DNA from: Carcharhinus amblyrhynchos
Lineage: Eukaryota
Direction of reading: 5' to 3'
Length of the DNA: 64,000 bases
NCBI GenBank assembly: GCA_965287045.1
Contig: OZ336885.1
Location: 37,820,001 to 37,884,000, forward strand
Below are positions 12,001 through 60,000 of this stretch, piece by piece (position 1 is the first letter of the stretch; each line of letters starts with the position of its first letter). Position numbers: made by a program.

Positions 12001-15000
12001 CTATAGGCAAAGCTTTTTAATAAAGGATATAATTACAACAATTTACAAAATTTACTACACCTTAATTTCCATCTGTCGAAGCGCTCTTTCAGTTACTGGT
12101 TAAGTGTGACCGTGCCTAACTAAAATGTGTAAAACTATTCTGAGAAACAAAATAAAATATCAGATAGGCATGAGAAGAAGCTATCGTATCAGCAGCTGCT
12201 ATATGCTGGCGATGAAAGTCTTGTCTATGTAGTAAATGGTGCTCACACTTACAGATTAAATCAATTGATAAATGTATGGTGAGATTAAAATGAGGCCCTT
12301 AGTTATCTGATTCTAATAGAATAAGAACAGACTTTAGATAACTCTTACTGTCTTCCCCCATGTGATAATCCCTATGACTTCCATGGGTGATCTTTAACTG
12401 ATCGCCCTGTGGAGCTTGTTGAATAAGAGTTCCCTTGATAATAGACAATGGCCTGATCAAGTGGAACTGGGCAGCTACCGGGAAGGGCCTGTAGAACTAT
12501 TGTCCCAGTTGGGACTTGTGTGAGAATTGTTGTACCAGTTGGGAGTCAAGTATCCTAGAAGGCAAAATCCCAGAAGGCGTAACCCAAAAAGGTGACAGAT
12601 AGCAACTTACAATGGACTCCATTTTCATTGGGAGTTTGTTTCTTGCTGTACAAGGAAGGCATATTTGTGTTGACATTTAATATTATATCATTGTGAAATT
12701 ATAATGTATTGTAATTTATAATGGATAAATTTGGATAAATTGTAATGTATTTGGATGAATTGTTTAAATTAAAAGAAAGCTGGGACTTGTGTACGTGTTG
12801 AACAATGAATACCATTCCTTTTCAGTAGGGCTTTCTGAGATATTACACCCTCCCTCGTCCATACACACCAAGAGAAAGATGCACTTAATCTCACTGGCTG
12901 GACAGGTCAACATTATAGCTTTTGGAGGGAAGGATGCTAAACGCAGCATTAGATTCGAAAATGAAGATAGGAAGACCAAGAGTTGTATGGGGCGGGGGTG
13001 CAGTAGCAGACGAAACAATAGCAAGGAGAAAGGAAAGAAACAAGATAATCAAATGTGGAAGCGTAAACCTGACTCATTTTGATGAGGAAAGTGAATTCGT
13101 TCACAAAGCACATCATACATCCCGAAGTCAAATAATAACAAGTTTAAACAAATGCAGTGGCAAGCCTCTCGGCAGTGAGATAAGTGGCCAGTTCGTCTGT
13201 TCTGGAGGTGCTGCTGAAAGGAGAAATAACCCCAACTCCGGCACAGCATCACCACTCCTCCAGAAAACGTGCCCTGGGATCTTCTTTGTCCGGCTCAACA
13301 GCTGGATGAGGCTCTTCTTTCATTTATCATCAACGCCAGCCTAGATCCTGGTCAAATCCTGCTACAGAGTTCATCCCACAATGTCTGCCTCACATCTGAG
13401 ATTATAGGGCGGAGATGTGCCGGGCGGGACATTATCCTATTTTGATATCCCGATTGAAAAATAAACGCACGCGTTTGAATTGGATTTGCACCCTGGCTGA
13501 TCACAGCTCACCCTCCCGAATATTTCCAGAATGCTGGCATCCGCGCAAACCATTCACTGAGACATAGTCAGAGGAATTGCCTGAGAGCGAATGGGGCCGC
13601 AGAAAGAAATGAAAGGGAATGTTACTGAATATGAGCGGACCATTTGGGTGTAAATTTTAGGGTTCGTGGAAAAGAAATCAGTGACTGGATGTGAGATCTG
13701 TCAGTACCCCAAATGTTCAAGTTGGCTCCAGATTTTAAAATAAGAAAATGCAACAATTTGTAAAAGTCTGTTCTTTCATCCTGATTTTGTTTGCAGATGT
13801 GTTATTCCTCAATCAGGTTTTCACTGCAGCTCTTGCCCTAACGATGTGGGATTGGCCCAGGATGAATTGGGGCTGCAATGTGCAGTGTTGTTGAGTTGTG
13901 CTTTGCGGCTCGTCATTACCTGATTCCTAGAATCTGCTCTGACTCTCCACGTGTTTGCGACAGAACAAACTAAACCATGGGCTTGTCAGCCACACCAACC
14001 AGGTACCTCTTCTGATTGGCCAGGGGCTGGGATCAACACAAGCCTCTGTATCTATATATATTCGGTAAGAAACCAGTATACACAGAGGGGGCTGAGAACT
14101 TGTTGAGATTTTTTTTCCAAAATGCGGGTGCAGAGCAAGAACGGCAGCCGGCTCCTGCAGTTTCTGAGACAAGGGGACAAGTTGCGACACCGCACTCCGC
14201 TTTCGACAGCTGGCAGTGTGGCAGACAAAGCCATGGCTCCGTGTGGCCACAGCTCCATCCCAGGTCCCACCAGCTGGCCCGTGCTAGGCAGCCTGCTGGA
14301 GATCATCCGGAGAGGAGGGCTCCAAAAACAGCACAAAACACTGGTAAATCCAAGGCTGGGACCAAAACAAGTCTAGCTTCATCCATAGCTCAATTTGCAA
14401 TAAGAATCTGTGTGATTTGCCATTTCAGAAAATAATGCAGCAAAATCCCTAGCTCATCTGACCTAAAGTATTTTTTATTTGCCATTTCAGAAAATAATGC
14501 AGTAAAATTCCTAGCTCAATTATCCGAAGCTTTTTTTTCTTTTTATATATAACTACAGGAACGATGGGGACCCAAACTCTGGGCACCAAGTGGTCATCCA
14601 GATGTGTCCCCCTCCTCCCCCCGTCGTTATCTTTAAGCGTATGTTCTTCTTTCACAGGTCGAATTTCACAAGAAATTTGGGAAGATTTTTAAGATGAAAT
14701 TGGGGCCATTTGAAACCGTACACATCGGGGCTCCGTGCCTGCTCGAAGCTCTTTACCGTAAAGAGAGCAATTACCCGCAGCGTCTGGAGATTAAACCGTG
14801 GAAAGCTTACCGGGACTACAGAGACGAGGCGTATGGACTGCTCATACTGTGAGTACCAAAGGCAAAGCCCATGTCAGCTGTGCCGATAGCAATAACCCGT
14901 GGAAATATTCACATACGAATGATAGTCCGATTCCTCCCGTGCAGTGCATTTCATTGAGAAATTGCACATGGCAGAATTTTGGAATTGTTACAAACTTGCT

Positions 15001-57000: not shown

Positions 57001-60000
57001 CCTCTCACAGTTGTGCGATTTAGTGAATTGGCCATGCTAAATTGCCCCTTAGTGTTCAAAGATGTGTGTGTTAGGTGAATTAGCCGTGATAAATGTGCGG
57101 GGTCACAGGGATGGGGCAGAGGAAAAAGAGCAGTACCACATGTGCAACGGTTAATTTTGTAGACAGTATTGGACTTGCAGTATTGGACTTGCAGTATTGG
57201 GATGCGCCCCCCCCCACCCCCCAAACCACCCCCCCCCACCCCCCACCCCACCCCCACAGTGATCTAACAGCCTATTAATTATCATTGTGATTGTTGGGCA
57301 ATTGGTTCAGTAGCCAGAAGGGATCAGTAGCTGTGAAACTGTAGCTCAGCTAGACTTTAATGTATTAAGTATACGCTGATAGGTAGTTAAGGCAAAATCA
57401 TTTAAAAGTAATTAATTTGTAGCATCTAACGTGACCAGTGATATTTCAACATCACCTATTGTGTATCCAGAAAAAAACAAGTGAAGGCATATTCGTTAAT
57501 CATAATACAAAAAGATTTTAAGGATAAATTAGAGAAAACTTTTGAATACCCATGATACTTTTTTTTACTAATATTAGAAAACAGAGCAAAATAAATCCTA
57601 AAATGCCATACAAAACTTCACAATACTATAATGTATTTTGAGTGCACGTTTGAAACTAATGGGACAGTTTGAAATGATCAGACAGAACTGAGGTGAAGGA
57701 ATGTTAAGTGTGGGTATGTGAATCAGAATGCCTTTCCTGATTGCCACATTCCAAAAAGGCTAAGTTTGGATAATGAAATCTGTAGAGAAACAAAGCTCAA
57801 GACGGAGAAAGCGACTGTCAGCTTTATTCTGGGGAGCGGCGAACTGAAAAGAGATGATGTGTGAGGCAAAAATGGATTTCCAAATAACGAGGTGAACTCA
57901 ATGAACTCTACGAACTCATACACTTCAAAAGTTGTTTCTCTATATTCTGTAAGGATACAGAGAGAACCTGCATATCCTAAGGGCAAGGGATTTTAATTTT
58001 AAAATTATTACTCTTCATTCTTGGTTTATTTGATAGTAAATTGTTTAGCAAATTTACCAAACACAATTAGGGGAGAGTAGAAAGAGCATTGACAATTATA
58101 TGTTCTATTTAGAGTTTAGAAGGAAAATAGGTAGGCCAAAATAATTAATAACCATAAGTAAAAAGCTCAGAAAAAGTGTTTAATGGAGGGATGAAGAATG
58201 AGCAAGCAAATCTTGACGTGTTTGTTGAAGGCACAAAAAGGATCAATTTGGAACATAACATCCTGAGTTTCAGTGATATCTGAAAACATTTGACCCAAAA
58301 TTGAAGCTGGCCATTTTTAAGGCATTTGCAAACTGCCTAAGACTTGCATATCCGAATGAGAGGCCTTATGGTGCAATGGGTAGCCTCTCTATTTCTGAGC
58401 CAGGCACTCCAGCATTGAGTTCCACTTGATGGCTAAGGGAGGTGTGTTCATAATGCAGCTAAAACAGGTCAAGTGTCCATCTGCAAATCCTTCCAGTTGC
58501 AGGCGGTAAGAGCCGGGGTGGCTCCTGGTCAGCCATGCCTGATGTGGAGTGCTGCCCTCAAGCTATAATCCTCTGGAGGCAGACTAGTGACCTGTTCCAG
58601 GAACAACTAGCTGTGGAAACAAACAAAAGTCTGTCTTAGTGCGCTGCTAGGCAATTTATGTAAATGAATGGCCTCATAATTGTCTGAGAACCTTTACAGG
58701 AAATCAAGTTGTCCTTTTGAATGTGGCCTAGTCAATGGCTGCATTGTAAAGATAAGTGACGTTCTTTTATTTCTTTAGAGCTAATAGGAAAAAGTGTACA
58801 CATAACTACTCTATGGTTTTTACGGGTGGATTTTACAGCCTCACTTGTCCTAAAATTGTAAACTCCCACCCAAGGTCAATGGACCTTCCCATTGTCTGCC
58901 CCTCACCTGCAATTCCCATGATGGGCAGGACGGTAAAATTCTGGCATATGTCTTCAAAACATGTAGTCTACATCAATGAGATGCAGGCAATAACTAAGTG
59001 ATCTTTAATGAATGAGTCTGCTTAATCAATCACTAAATTTCTTTTCTACCAACAAGAAAAGGGGGAGGATGTCATTCTCCAGATGACTCCACATTCCCCA
59101 CACCACCTCTGAGGCGGCAACAGAAGATTCCTCAGAGGAAGAAGATATTGTGTTCACCAGTATCCTCTACCATTGCAGATGCACACACCTCAGAGGGACC
59201 TCATTCAAGGATAGACTTGGAGTTACAGTCTGGTGATTAATCCACAGACACAGTCCTACAGCTGGTGGAGGCAGTGACAGCCAAGATCTGTGACACTCAG
59301 AGGACTGTTGGAGACCAGGCTCCTGCTGAGACTGAGTCCAATGATGAGCCCCTGAACTCGGCTCTACCTAACAGACGTCTTAGAGACGTAGAGACAGGTA
59401 GGGGAACATCAGCCAGAGTTATCAAAGGCTGTTCGCAAACTTGACTGAAAGATGGAGAAGTCCATCTGCATACTCAGTGCAGTTGTGGCTCTGGCATACA
59501 AGTGCCTTGAAATCTCTATAGGAAGGGTGGTAGCGGCCTCAGAGACCCAGGTCCAGCAGTTTCTGCAGGATTTGCCCACTATCATTCTAACCTTAAGTGC
59601 GTTTCAGCAGTGGCTAGGCAAGAAGGGGATCTCGACCTCCCTCCAGATGCACCTTTTCTGCGTGGAGTGAGGGAGAGGCCACTGACACCCGAAAAGAGGA
59701 GCTCACCATACAGACACCCGGGGGTTTCATCCCGGGGTACTTCAGGTGTGTCCTGGTGCTCTGCAGTGATCCCATCACTTCCAGCTGGTCAGGCCATGGA
59801 GAGTCCACCTGTACCTGAGCAGGAAACATTCAGCAGGCTGGAACCCTCAAAACCTCAGGCCACTGGAGGATGCCTGCCAAAGTCATCTCAGACAGCACAG
59901 CATAACAGTCAACAAGTTGCCTCCACCTCTGCTGGGGATGTCAGGGCTGCAGCCAGACATAGCAGAAGGGTTAGATAGGTTAAAAAGTATTGGATGCACA

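What the first reader, a model, noticed from the sequence alone, without database searches (positions are those of the whole stretch)
14012..57930. Multi-layer vitamin-D catabolic feedback module readable in a cartilaginous fish
One locus combines an intact CYP24A1, distal VDREs (transcriptional induction), a miR-125 site (post-transcriptional damping) and Gly326-type regiochemistry. If confirmed, the VDR-to-CYP24A1 negative-feedback loop was in place before the split from bony vertebrates, and its output may be lactones rather than calcitroic acid. I cannot check whether this has already been published.
Basis: inference. Interest (0 to 1): 0.68.

Follow-up and report, generated by a model that had tools for sequence, protein, structure and literature searches.

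The report
Intact CYP24A1 gene, speculative regulatory layers
The window holds an ordinary, intact vitamin-D-degrading enzyme gene (CYP24A1) of a non-mammalian vertebrate with glycine at the position that steers the chemistry, but the proposed hormone-response and microRNA controls are only candidate motifs.

Summary
The gene is real. Eleven coding exons lie on the + strand (14122-30005). All 10 introns are GT-AG, the phases fit, and the exons sum to 1509 nt. All 10 exons searched against solved structures hit rat CYP24A1 best and in order. Exon 9 has only a Pfam P450 match.

Gly326 is confirmed. The window reads I-G-G-V-E-T where rat reads L325-A326-A327-V328-E329.

The "distal VDREs" exist as two identical perfect DR3s, AGTTCAttgAGTTCA, at 52869-52883 and 57893-57907 on the - strand. 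They sit in one duplicated block of about 115 nt. The DR3 count is at chance level: 2 found against 0.96 expected, and no more than other spacings give. The proximal promoter has no good DR3.

The miR-125 layer is not supported. There is one seed match, 4466 nt past the stop codon. Seed matches are fewer than chance in the window, and it is unknown whether the site lies in the UTR.

A cartilaginous-fish origin, induction by hormone and lactone output could not be tested.

Verdict: a new member of a known kind, of modest interest.

The parts
14015..14062 (+). Putative core promoter: inverted CCAAT (ATTGG, 14015-14019) and a TATA-like run (14053-14062), 60-107 nt before the ATG
   Evidence: Read directly. 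No transcript data; inferred.
13986..14000 (-). Weak DR3-like site (2 mismatches to RGKTSAnnnRGKTSA), 122-136 nt before the ATG
   Evidence: It is the only hit in the 1000 nt before the ATG. 61 of 64 tiles of 1000 nt have at least as many hits, so it is chance level.
14122..14343 (+). CYP24A1 coding exon 1 (ATG, presequence, start of the P450 domain)
   Evidence: Rat CYP24A1 chain 24-55, E 1.4e-8. An in-frame stop lies just upstream of the ORF.
14658..14848 (+). Coding exon 2 (holds Arg128, Leu129, Ile131 and Trp134 equivalents; Leu at 148)
   Evidence: E 8.9e-30, chain 55-118; Pfam p450 E 8.7e-7.
15241..15334 (+). Coding exon 3
   Evidence: E 9.1e-10, chain 118-151.
16326..16422 (+). Coding exon 4
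   Evidence: E 1.5e-9, chain 141-182.
18123..18214 (+). Coding exon 5
   Evidence: E 8.1e-7, chain 178-213.
19056..19167 (+). Coding exon 6 (Met246 and Phe249 equivalents kept)
   Evidence: E 3.5e-14, chain 205-249.
25328..25473 (+). Coding exon 7, I-helix. The Gly326 codon is 25459-25461 and the Gly327 codon is 25462-25464.
   Evidence: E 9.1e-11, chain 251-299, ungapped. Numbering offset of +32.
26877..27043 (+). Coding exon 8 (ExxR motif E-S-M-R)
   Evidence: E 2.7e-18, chain 296-355; Pfam p450 E 1.5e-17.
28328..28406 (+). Coding exon 9 (Val391, Phe393 and Thr394 equivalents; Ser at 395)
   Evidence: Pfam p450 only, E 0.0036, below the curated cut-off. Its 26 codons exactly fill chain positions 355-380 between exons 8 and 10.
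29587..29784 (+). Coding exon 10, heme-binding loop [10 protein letters not shown] (Cys codon 29734-29736); Met at 416
   Evidence: E 9.7e-27, chain 381-447; Pfam p450 E 8.2e-21.
29895..30005 (+). Coding exon 11 with the stop codon at 30003-30005 (Gly499 and Ile500 equivalents kept)
   Evidence: E 9.5e-10, chain 443-481.
34471..34477 (+). Single miR-125 core match (CTCAGGG, 7mer-m8, followed by T), 4466 nt past the stop codon
   Evidence: Whether it lies in the 3' UTR is unknown.
34550..34575 (+). Cluster of poly(A)-signal hexamers (ATTAAA 34550, AATAAA 34560, ATTAAA 34570). If used, it would end a 3' UTR of about 4.6 kb just after the seed match.
   Evidence: Earlier hexamers lie at 30690, 31590, 33982 and 34217. 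No RNA evidence.
52772..52886 (-). Downstream block A, holding the perfect DR3 AGTTCAttgAGTTCA at 52869-52883. The DR3 starts 22.9 kb past the stop and 38.7 kb past the ATG.
57793..57916 (-). Downstream block B, holding the same DR3 at 57893-57907 plus a third half-site (AGTTCG) in DR3 register at 57911-57916, the first half-site of the overlapping 1-mismatch DR3 57902-57916 (- strand). The DR3 starts 27.9 kb past the stop and 43.8 kb past the ATG.

Best explanation
The locus is a single, intact orthologue of CYP24A1, the mitochondrial P450 that degrades 25-hydroxy- and 1,25-dihydroxyvitamin D. It belongs to a non-mammalian vertebrate.

Shown:
- 11 coding exons and about 502 codons.
- The heme-Cys loop, the ExxR motif and the I-helix motif.
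- Almost all substrate-contact residues named for rat CYP24A1 are kept.
- Gly-Gly stands where rat has Ala326-Ala327.

Inferred:
- The enzyme hydroxylates the vitamin D side chain.
- By analogy with the mammalian A326G work, it leans towards C23 hydroxylation and the lactone route.

Candidate only: two copies of a block of about 115 nt, 23 and 28 kb downstream of the gene, each carry a perfect DR3 of AGTTCA half-sites. These could bind VDR/RXR and act like the mammalian downstream (DS2) enhancers.

The miR-125 seed match is best read as chance.
For: Gene:
- 10 of 10 introns are GT-AG, the phases fit, and the exons sum to 1509 nt.
- No split codon can be a stop. The split codons begin CT, A, G and AG.
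- 10 of 10 exons searched hit rat CYP24A1 3k9v first. The next hits are far weaker, for example exon 2 at 8.9e-30 against 2.1e-12 for CYP11A1.
- The exons cover chain positions 24-481 in order.
- By my hand count of the match lines, 287 of 431 exon-coded aligned positions are identical to rat (67%). Zebrafish CYP24A1 is 63% identical to human (PMC3012610, passage).

Residue 326:
- PMC12467546 (passages) lists rat Leu325, Ala326, Val328 and Glu329. This fixes chain 294 as Ala326, which aligns with the first Gly of I-G-G-V-E-T.
- Ala326 favours C24 and Gly326 favours C23 hydroxylation (PMC7569877 and PMC8584323, passages).

DR3:
- There are two exact sites.
- The block they share aligns at E 6e-17 and is the only colinear similarity between 50-55.4 kb and 55.4-61 kb.
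- A stringent pattern chosen after the fact, RGTTCAnnGRGTTCA, gives 2 hits against 0.02 expected.
- Mouse DS2, the 1,25D3-responsive cluster, lies at +35 to +46 kb (PMC11370538, passages). The sites here lie 38.7 and 43.8 kb past the ATG.
- Skate VDR with RXR binds a canonical DR3 (PMC4391915, passages).
Against: - The DR3 count is not above chance (24 of 100 shuffles reach 2) nor above other spacings.
- The two sites share ancestry, so they are one event.
- The stringent pattern was chosen after seeing the sites.
- An identical run of 18 nt within a block that is about 80% identical is not by itself unusual (my estimate).
- The block could be a short mobile element.
- The promoter has no DR3 within 1 mismatch, unlike the mouse promoter with VDREs near -150 and -250.
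- Solved structures gave no CYP27 hit to compare against, so orthology rests on the 67% identity and on collinearity.
- Exon 9 has only a sub-threshold Pfam match.
- Gly327, Leu148, Ser395 and Met416 differ from rat, so the A326G analogy may not carry over.
- There are no expression data.
Confidence: 0.75

Rival explanations
1. The two DR3s are bystanders. One chance or transposon-borne DR3 was copied once by a local duplication or a second insertion. Any hormone control of the gene runs through other elements that a consensus scan cannot see.
For: The DR3 count is at chance and equals other spacings. Both sites sit in one duplicated block. The window is rich in interspersed repeats: 8854 bases are covered by self-matches. 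Half-site density around the sites is 4 per 500 nt, against a mean of 2.4 with sd 1.5, which is unremarkable.
Against: The block occurs only twice in 64 kb, and the copies are only 5 kb apart. No inverted repeat is shared by the two copies. The DR3 is the longest identical run in the pairwise alignment. The site matches a stringent high-affinity-type pattern rarely seen in shuffles (chosen after the fact).
Confidence: 0.5
2. The full reading of the first stage holds. All four layers are functional parts of one feedback module in a cartilaginous fish: the gene, distal VDREs, miR-125 damping and lactone-directed chemistry.
For: The gene and Gly326 are confirmed. DR3s are present. One seed match lies 73-93 nt before the poly(A) hexamers that start at 34550, 34560 and 34570, and a duplex with some 3' pairing folds at -16.5 kcal/mol.
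Against: Seed matches are fewer than chance, 5 against 9.96 expected. The site lies 4466 nt past the stop and beyond four earlier poly(A) hexamers. 111 of 1000 context shuffles pair as well. The DR3 count is at chance. The taxon is untested.
Confidence: 0.07
3. The DR3 blocks are real nuclear-receptor sites, but for another RXR partner that accepts DR3-type repeats, such as a PXR-like xenobiotic receptor. They might also regulate a neighbouring gene rather than CYP24A1.
For: That DR3 repeats are not exclusive to VDR is established knowledge, recalled here. PMC6539745 (seen only as a search listing and abstract start) deals with preservation and loss of PXR in chondrichthyan lineages. The sites lie 23-28 kb beyond the gene, and the next gene is unknown: of 92 ORFs of 90 aa or more, only a reverse transcriptase has a Pfam match.
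Against: No evidence for a neighbouring gene in the window. The position parallels mouse DS2.
Confidence: 0.1

Closest known systems
Rat and human CYP24A1 (rat structure 3K9V)
   Same: The order of all 10 exons searched matches. About 67% of aligned positions are identical by hand count. The heme loop, ExxR motif and I-helix are present. The equivalents of Arg128, Leu129, Ile131, Trp134, Ile242, Lys243, Met246, Phe249, Val391, Phe393, Thr394, Gly499 and Ile500 are kept.
   Different: Gly326-Gly327 in place of Ala-Ala, Ile325 for Leu, Leu148 for Met, Ser395 for Thr and Met416 for Thr. About 502 codons here, against a recalled 514 in mammals.
Opossum and guinea-pig CYP24A1 (Gly326, C23/lactone-preferring) and the human A326G mutant
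   Same: Gly at position 326 (PMC8584323 and PMC7569877, passages).
   Different: The products of this enzyme are unknown. It also carries Gly at 327. Prosser et al. 2007 could not be read, so I do not know which non-mammalian sequences it already lists with Gly326.
Mouse Cyp24a1 regulatory architecture (PRO VDREs at about -150 and -250; DS1 at +21 to +32 kb; DS2 at +35 to +46 kb)
   Same: Candidate DR3s lie downstream of the gene at 38.7 and 43.8 kb from the ATG, inside the distance range of DS2.
   Different: No proximal VDRE-like DR3. Homology with DS2 is untested. There are no occupancy data. The sites here are perfect AGTTCA repeats inside a duplicated block.
miR-125b recognition element of human VDR and CYP24 mRNAs
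   Same: The core CUCAGGG is present once on the sense strand (core as given in PMC5471063, passage).
   Different: It lies 4.5 kb past the stop and its UTR status is unknown. Its frequency is not above chance and its conservation is untested. Komagata et al. 2009 was seen only as cited in PMC5471063.
Zebrafish cyp24a1 as a canonical Vdr target
   Same: A fish orthologue of similar divergence: zebrafish is 63% identical to human. The feedback role is shown in zebrafish.
   Different: No cis-elements from zebrafish were available for comparison, and no induction data exist for this locus.

Membership tests
Cytochrome P450 superfamily | Heme-binding loop FxxGxRxCxG, ExxR motif, and I-helix (A/G)Gx(D/E)T(T/S) | tested here: met
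   [10 protein letters not shown] in exon 10, E-S-M-R in exon 8, and G-G-V-E-T | T across exons 7 and 8. Pfam p450 is above its cut-off for 3 of the 10 exon ORFs scanned, and profile positions run in order. The motif wording is recalled.
CYP24A subfamily (CYP24A1 orthologue) | More than 55% identity to a named CYP24A member (P450 nomenclature rule, recalled) | tested here: met
   287 of 431 exon-coded aligned positions are identical to rat CYP24A1. This is a hand count from the match lines. It was done exon by exon, and exon 9 and the presequence are not included.
CYP24A subfamily (CYP24A1 orthologue) | Closer to CYP24A1 than to other mitochondrial P450s (CYP11, CYP27) | tested here: inconclusive
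   CYP24A1 is the top hit for 10 of 10 exons, far ahead of CYP11A1 and CYP11B. No CYP27 chain appeared among the hits, and the protein databases that would allow a tree are closed.
CYP24A subfamily (CYP24A1 orthologue) | Complete, uninterrupted coding sequence | tested here: met
   11 exons, GT-AG introns, fitting phases, 1509 nt, no stop inside any exon frame. Checked without joining the exons.
CYP24A subfamily (CYP24A1 orthologue) | Conserved neighbours (PFDN4 and BCAS1 in human, recalled) | tested here: inconclusive
   Of 92 ORFs of 90 aa or more, only one has a Pfam match (RVT_1). Short exons of neighbours would be missed.
CYP24A subfamily (CYP24A1 orthologue) | 23- or 24-hydroxylation of 25(OH)D3 and 1,25(OH)2D3 | not testable with these tools
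   Needs recombinant enzyme and LC-MS.
Gly326-type (C23/lactone-preferring) CYP24A1 | Gly at the position of human and rat Ala326 | tested here: met
   Ungapped alignment. Numbering from Leu325, Ala326, Val328 and Glu329 in PMC12467546.
Gly326-type (C23/lactone-preferring) CYP24A1 | Predominant 23-hydroxylation and 26,23-lactone as product | not testable with these tools
   Inference from mammalian mutagenesis only.
DR3-type vitamin D response element | Two RGKTSA half-sites as a direct repeat spaced by 3 | tested here: met
   52869-52883 and 57893-57907, both AGTTCAttgAGTTCA. The consensus wording is recalled. PMC11370538 gives a narrower half-site, (G/A)GGT(G/C)A, which AGTTCA does not fit.
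DR3-type vitamin D response element | Occurrence beyond chance | tested here: not met
   2 found against 0.96 expected, and 24 of 100 shuffles reach 2. DR0 to DR8 give 0-2 exact hits. The two sites are one duplicated event.
DR3-type vitamin D response element | VDR/RXR binding and 1,25D3-dependent enhancer activity | not testable with these tools
   Needs EMSA, ChIP or reporter assays.
DR3-type vitamin D response element | Conservation at orthologous loci | not testable with these tools
Mammalian Cyp24a1 downstream enhancer cluster DS2 | Located downstream of the gene at about +35 to +46 kb and bound by VDR | tested here: inconclusive
   The distance matches (38.7 and 43.8 kb from the ATG). 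Homology and binding are untested.
miR-125 target site | Seed match (core CUCAGGG) inside the 3' UTR | tested here: inconclusive
   One sense-strand match at 34471, 4466 nt past the stop. The UTR end is unknown, and four poly(A) hexamers lie before it.
miR-125 target site | Occurrence or pairing beyond chance | tested here: not met
   5 found against 9.96 expected. The duplex folds at -16.5 kcal/mol, and 111 of 1000 context shuffles match or beat it.

The most novel reading that the evidence does not exclude
The duplicated DR3 block 23-28 kb downstream is the counterpart of the mammalian DS2 VDR enhancer cluster. On this reading, a distal downstream enhancer was the original way in which VDR induced CYP24A1 in early jawed vertebrates, and the promoter-proximal VDREs were added later. 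The ancestral enzyme, with its Gly-Gly I-helix, sent the hormone down the C23/lactone route and so produced a VDR antagonist rather than calcitroic acid.
Probability: 0.1. Interest if true: 0.6.

Novelty: new member of a known kind. Interest (0 to 1): 0.3.

Why it matters
If the downstream DR3 blocks are real VDR enhancers, the layout of CYP24A1 control would be far older than mammals: distal downstream elements rather than promoter elements. The blocks would give two short, mutable sequences with which to test this in elasmobranch or heterologous cells.

If Gly326-Gly327 does direct C23 hydroxylation, the lactone pathway would be a candidate ancestral output of vitamin D catabolism.

As it stands, the locus is a well-preserved orthologue of a well-known gene. 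The feedback loop is already shown in zebrafish, and VDR function is already shown in skate and lamprey. The finding extends known biology rather than overturning it.

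Tried and rejected
- Prosser et al. 2007 (the A326G paper) is not held, neither by DOI nor by PMC id. I used secondary passages instead.
- Rfam at gathering thresholds gave 0 matches in the window.
- A scan for a proximal VDRE found no DR3 within 1 mismatch in the 1 kb before the ATG. It found one 2-mismatch site that 61 of 64 tiles equal or exceed. I rejected it as evidence.
- A search for a wider tandem duplication around the DR3 blocks found only the block of about 115 nt to be significant. The next colinear hit has E 0.74.
- A search for terminal inverted repeats that would mark the blocks as a small transposon found nothing shared by both copies.
- Half-site density around the DR3s is unremarkable.
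- miR-125b duplex folding with context shuffles gave nothing notable.
- Pfam on 10 chosen ORFs and on all 92 ORFs of 90 aa or more found only Myb_DNA-bind_5 and RVT_1. No neighbouring gene was found.
- Literature: the four searches pairing CYP24A1 with taxon terms and the VDR/skate/CYP24 search listed nothing on CYP24A1 regulation or products in cartilaginous fish. In one search no listed paper contained CYP24A1, and most 'shark' hits are unrelated. This covers only the held library.
- No structure prediction or complex prediction was run, because each would need the joined protein.
- The bacterial and archaeal genome collection was not scanned, as it is irrelevant here.

Full report
**What is there**

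The window has no N. On the + strand, eleven stop-to-stop ORFs carry pieces of one P450. I set the exon borders from the alignments and from splice signals:

| Exon | Coordinates |
|---|---|
| 1 | 14122-14343 |
| 2 | 14658-14848 |
| 3 | 15241-15334 |
| 4 | 16326-16422 |
| 5 | 18123-18214 |
| 6 | 19056-19167 |
| 7 | 25328-25473 |
| 8 | 26877-27043 |
| 9 | 28328-28406 |
| 10 | 29587-29784 |
| 11 | 29895-30005 |

All 10 introns begin GT and end AG behind a pyrimidine-rich tract. The phases fit from exon to exon. The lengths sum to 1509 nt, which is 502 codons plus the stop. The four split codons begin CT, A, G and AG, so none can be a stop. An in-frame stop lies just upstream of the first ATG.

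I did not build, search or fold a joined coding sequence or protein. Whole-protein statistics, a full-length family scan, a tree and a structure prediction are therefore missing.

**Identity of the gene**

- Ten exons were searched against solved structures, and all ten gave rat CYP24A1 (3k9v) as the best hit. E-values ranged from 8.1e-7 to 8.9e-30.
- The matched chain positions run in order: 24-55, 55-118, 118-151, 141-182, 178-213, 205-249, 251-299, 296-355, 381-447 and 443-481.
- The next-best families (CYP11A1, CYP11B, CYP3A) are many orders of magnitude weaker.
It has a sub-threshold Pfam p450 match (E 0.0036, profile positions 332-363). Its 26 codons exactly fill chain positions 355-380.
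- Pfam p450 positions across the exons are also collinear.
- My hand count of the match lines gives 287 identical of 431 exon-coded aligned positions (67%).
- For scale, zebrafish CYP24A1 is 63% identical to human (PMC3012610, passage) and rat is about 85% identical to human (PMC12467546, passage). This is therefore a non-mammalian orthologue and not human DNA.
- No CYP27 chain appeared among the hits, and the large protein databases are closed. Orthology against CYP27 rests on the identity level and collinearity, not on a tree.

**Residue 326**

- The alignment of exon 7 to the rat chain is ungapped over 49 residues. The window reads E-L-Q-I-G-G-V-E-T where rat reads E-L-Q-L-A-A-V-E-T.
- PMC12467546 lists rat Leu325, Ala326, Val328 and Glu329 (passages). 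This fixes chain residue 294 as Ala326, an offset of +32.
- The window therefore has Ile325-Gly326-Gly327. The Gly326 codon is 25459-25461.
- Two reviews state that Ala326 favours C24 hydroxylation and Gly326 favours C23. They also state that opossum and guinea pig carry Gly, and that replacing Ala326 with Gly in the rat and human enzymes switches them to that type (PMC7569877 and PMC8584323, passages).
- The primary paper, Prosser et al. 2007, is not held.
- With the same offset, the contact residues named are mostly kept: Arg128, Leu129, Ile131, Trp134, Ile242, Lys243, Met246, Phe249, Val391, Phe393, Thr394, Gly499 and Ile500.
- The differences are Leu at 148, Ser at 395 and Met at 416. I recall that residues 416 and 500 were tied to the human-rat difference by Hamamoto et al. 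2006, but I saw only that paper's title.
The chemistry is an inference from mammalian mutants and could be altered by the extra Gly327.

**VDRE layer**

- The broad DR3 consensus RGKTSAnnnRGKTSA occurs exactly twice. Both copies read AGTTCAttgAGTTCA on the - strand, at 52869-52883 and 57893-57907.
- Shuffles expect 0.96 sites, and 24 of 100 shuffles reach two. Direct repeats with spacers 0 to 8 give 0-2 exact hits and 8-22 one-mismatch hits, against 22 for DR3. There is no excess.
- The two sites are not independent. They lie in one duplicated block, 52772-52886 against 57793-57910, which is 76-81% identical at E 6e-17.
- That block is the only significant colinear similarity between the two 5-kb neighbourhoods. 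It occurs only twice in the window.
- The DR3 with its 5' flank is the longest identical run in the pairwise alignment, at 18 nt. By my estimate, a run of that length is not rare in about 100 positions at 80% identity.
- Copy B has a third half-site in register, reading AGTTCGtagAGTTCAttgAGTTCA.
- A narrower pattern that I chose after seeing the sites, RGTTCAnnGRGTTCA, gives 2 hits against 0.02 expected. This shows that the site is of high quality, but it is a post hoc test.
- The sites lie 22.9 and 27.9 kb past the stop codon, or 38.7 and 43.8 kb past the ATG. In mouse, the 1,25D3-responsive downstream cluster DS2 lies at +35 to +46 kb, and two promoter VDREs lie near -150 and -250 (PMC11370538, passages).
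- In this window the 1 kb before the ATG has no DR3 within one mismatch. It has a single two-mismatch site, 13986-14000 on the - strand, and 61 of 64 tiles match or exceed that count.
- The positional parallel with DS2 is the most interesting lead. Homology, binding and activity are all untested.

**miR-125 layer**

- The core CUCAGGG, as given in PMC5471063 (passage), occurs 5 times on both strands against 9.96 expected.
- After the stop codon, the only sense-strand match is at 34471-34477, which is 4466 nt downstream. No 6-mer match lies before it.
- Four poly(A) hexamers precede it, at 30690, 31590, 33982 and 34217. A cluster follows at 34550-34575, in sequence that looks like a transcript end. 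A UTR of about 4.6 kb is therefore possible but unproven.
- A duplex with the published miR-125b sequence folds at -16.5 kcal/mol with some 3' pairing. However, 111 of 1000 shuffles of the upstream context do as well.
- I read this site as chance.

**Surroundings**

- Rfam gave no match.
- Of 92 ORFs of 90 aa or more, only one has a Pfam match, a reverse transcriptase at 48053-48526 on the - strand.
- A Myb/SANT-like ORF lies at 9425-9691.
- Self-comparison shows several interspersed repeat families. No neighbouring gene was found.
- The SINE and LINE fragments look like those I recall from shark genomes. That is recall only. No tool here can assign the taxon, so "cartilaginous fish" stays unverified.

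**Comparison with what is known**

- The gene is an ordinary member of the CYP24A subfamily.
- The feedback loop is established in mammals and in zebrafish, where cyp24a1 is used as the canonical Vdr reporter and is called the negative feedback regulator (PMC11708751, passages).
- Skate VDR responds to 1,25D3 with an EC50 of 7.9 nM and binds DR3 probes with RXR (PMC4391915, passages).
- Lamprey VDR is said to activate CYP3A4 "and possibly CYP24A1" (PMC5298971, passage).
- The four searches of the held library that paired CYP24A1 with taxon terms, and the VDR/skate/CYP24 search, listed no paper on CYP24A1 regulation or products in cartilaginous fish. Subscription journals, and supplements (closed), may hold such data.

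**Verdict**

The gene and Gly326 are solid. The DR3 pair is a testable candidate. The miR-125 site is not evidence. I rate it a new member of a known kind, with modest interest.

Noticed in passing
window 1606-1825, 7144-7440, 25849-26181, 35264-35445, 37420-37660, 56854-57093: A SINE-like family with 5-7 cross-matches per copy. One copy has an internal 53-nt tandem unit (1736-1879). From recall it resembles a SINE common in shark genomes. This was not tested.
   Followed up: partly
window 17154-17797, 38103-38832, 47126-47830, 48053-48526 (-): LINE fragments that match one another. The ORF at 48053-48526 hits Pfam RVT_1 (E 4.3e-11). The others have no Pfam match.
   Followed up: partly
window 9425-9691 (+): An ORF with a Myb/SANT-like DNA-binding domain (Myb_DNA-bind_5, E 1e-6), probably transposon-derived, 4.4 kb upstream of the CYP24A1 start.
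   Followed up: no
window 15332-15487: A minisatellite (units of 16, 32 and 64 nt, 74-84% matches) whose first bases (15332-15334) overlap the 3' end of exon 3; it runs on into intron 3.
   Followed up: no
window 43821-44035: Five copies of a 43-nt tandem repeat at 98% identity, which points to a young array.
   Followed up: no
window 51253-51682: Tandem array with 31-nt and 90-nt periods (78-98% matches), about 1.2 kb upstream (lower coordinates) of DR3 block A.
   Followed up: no
window 23520-23612 (-): ARAGORN calls a tRNA-Ile-like sequence (anticodon aat) inside a repeat. The segment 23274-23588 matches 53343-53661 at 68%. It is probably the head of a tRNA-derived SINE and not a gene.
   Followed up: partly
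window 29785-29894: The last intron is only 110 nt, much shorter than the others (314-6160 nt).
   Followed up: no
window 1-2000 and 58000-64000: G+C is higher (0.46-0.50) than in the rest of the window (mostly 0.35-0.45). No coding match was found there.
   Followed up: partly
window 31150-31200: Long C-rich homopolymer runs about 1.2 kb past the stop codon, inside any long 3' UTR.
   Followed up: no
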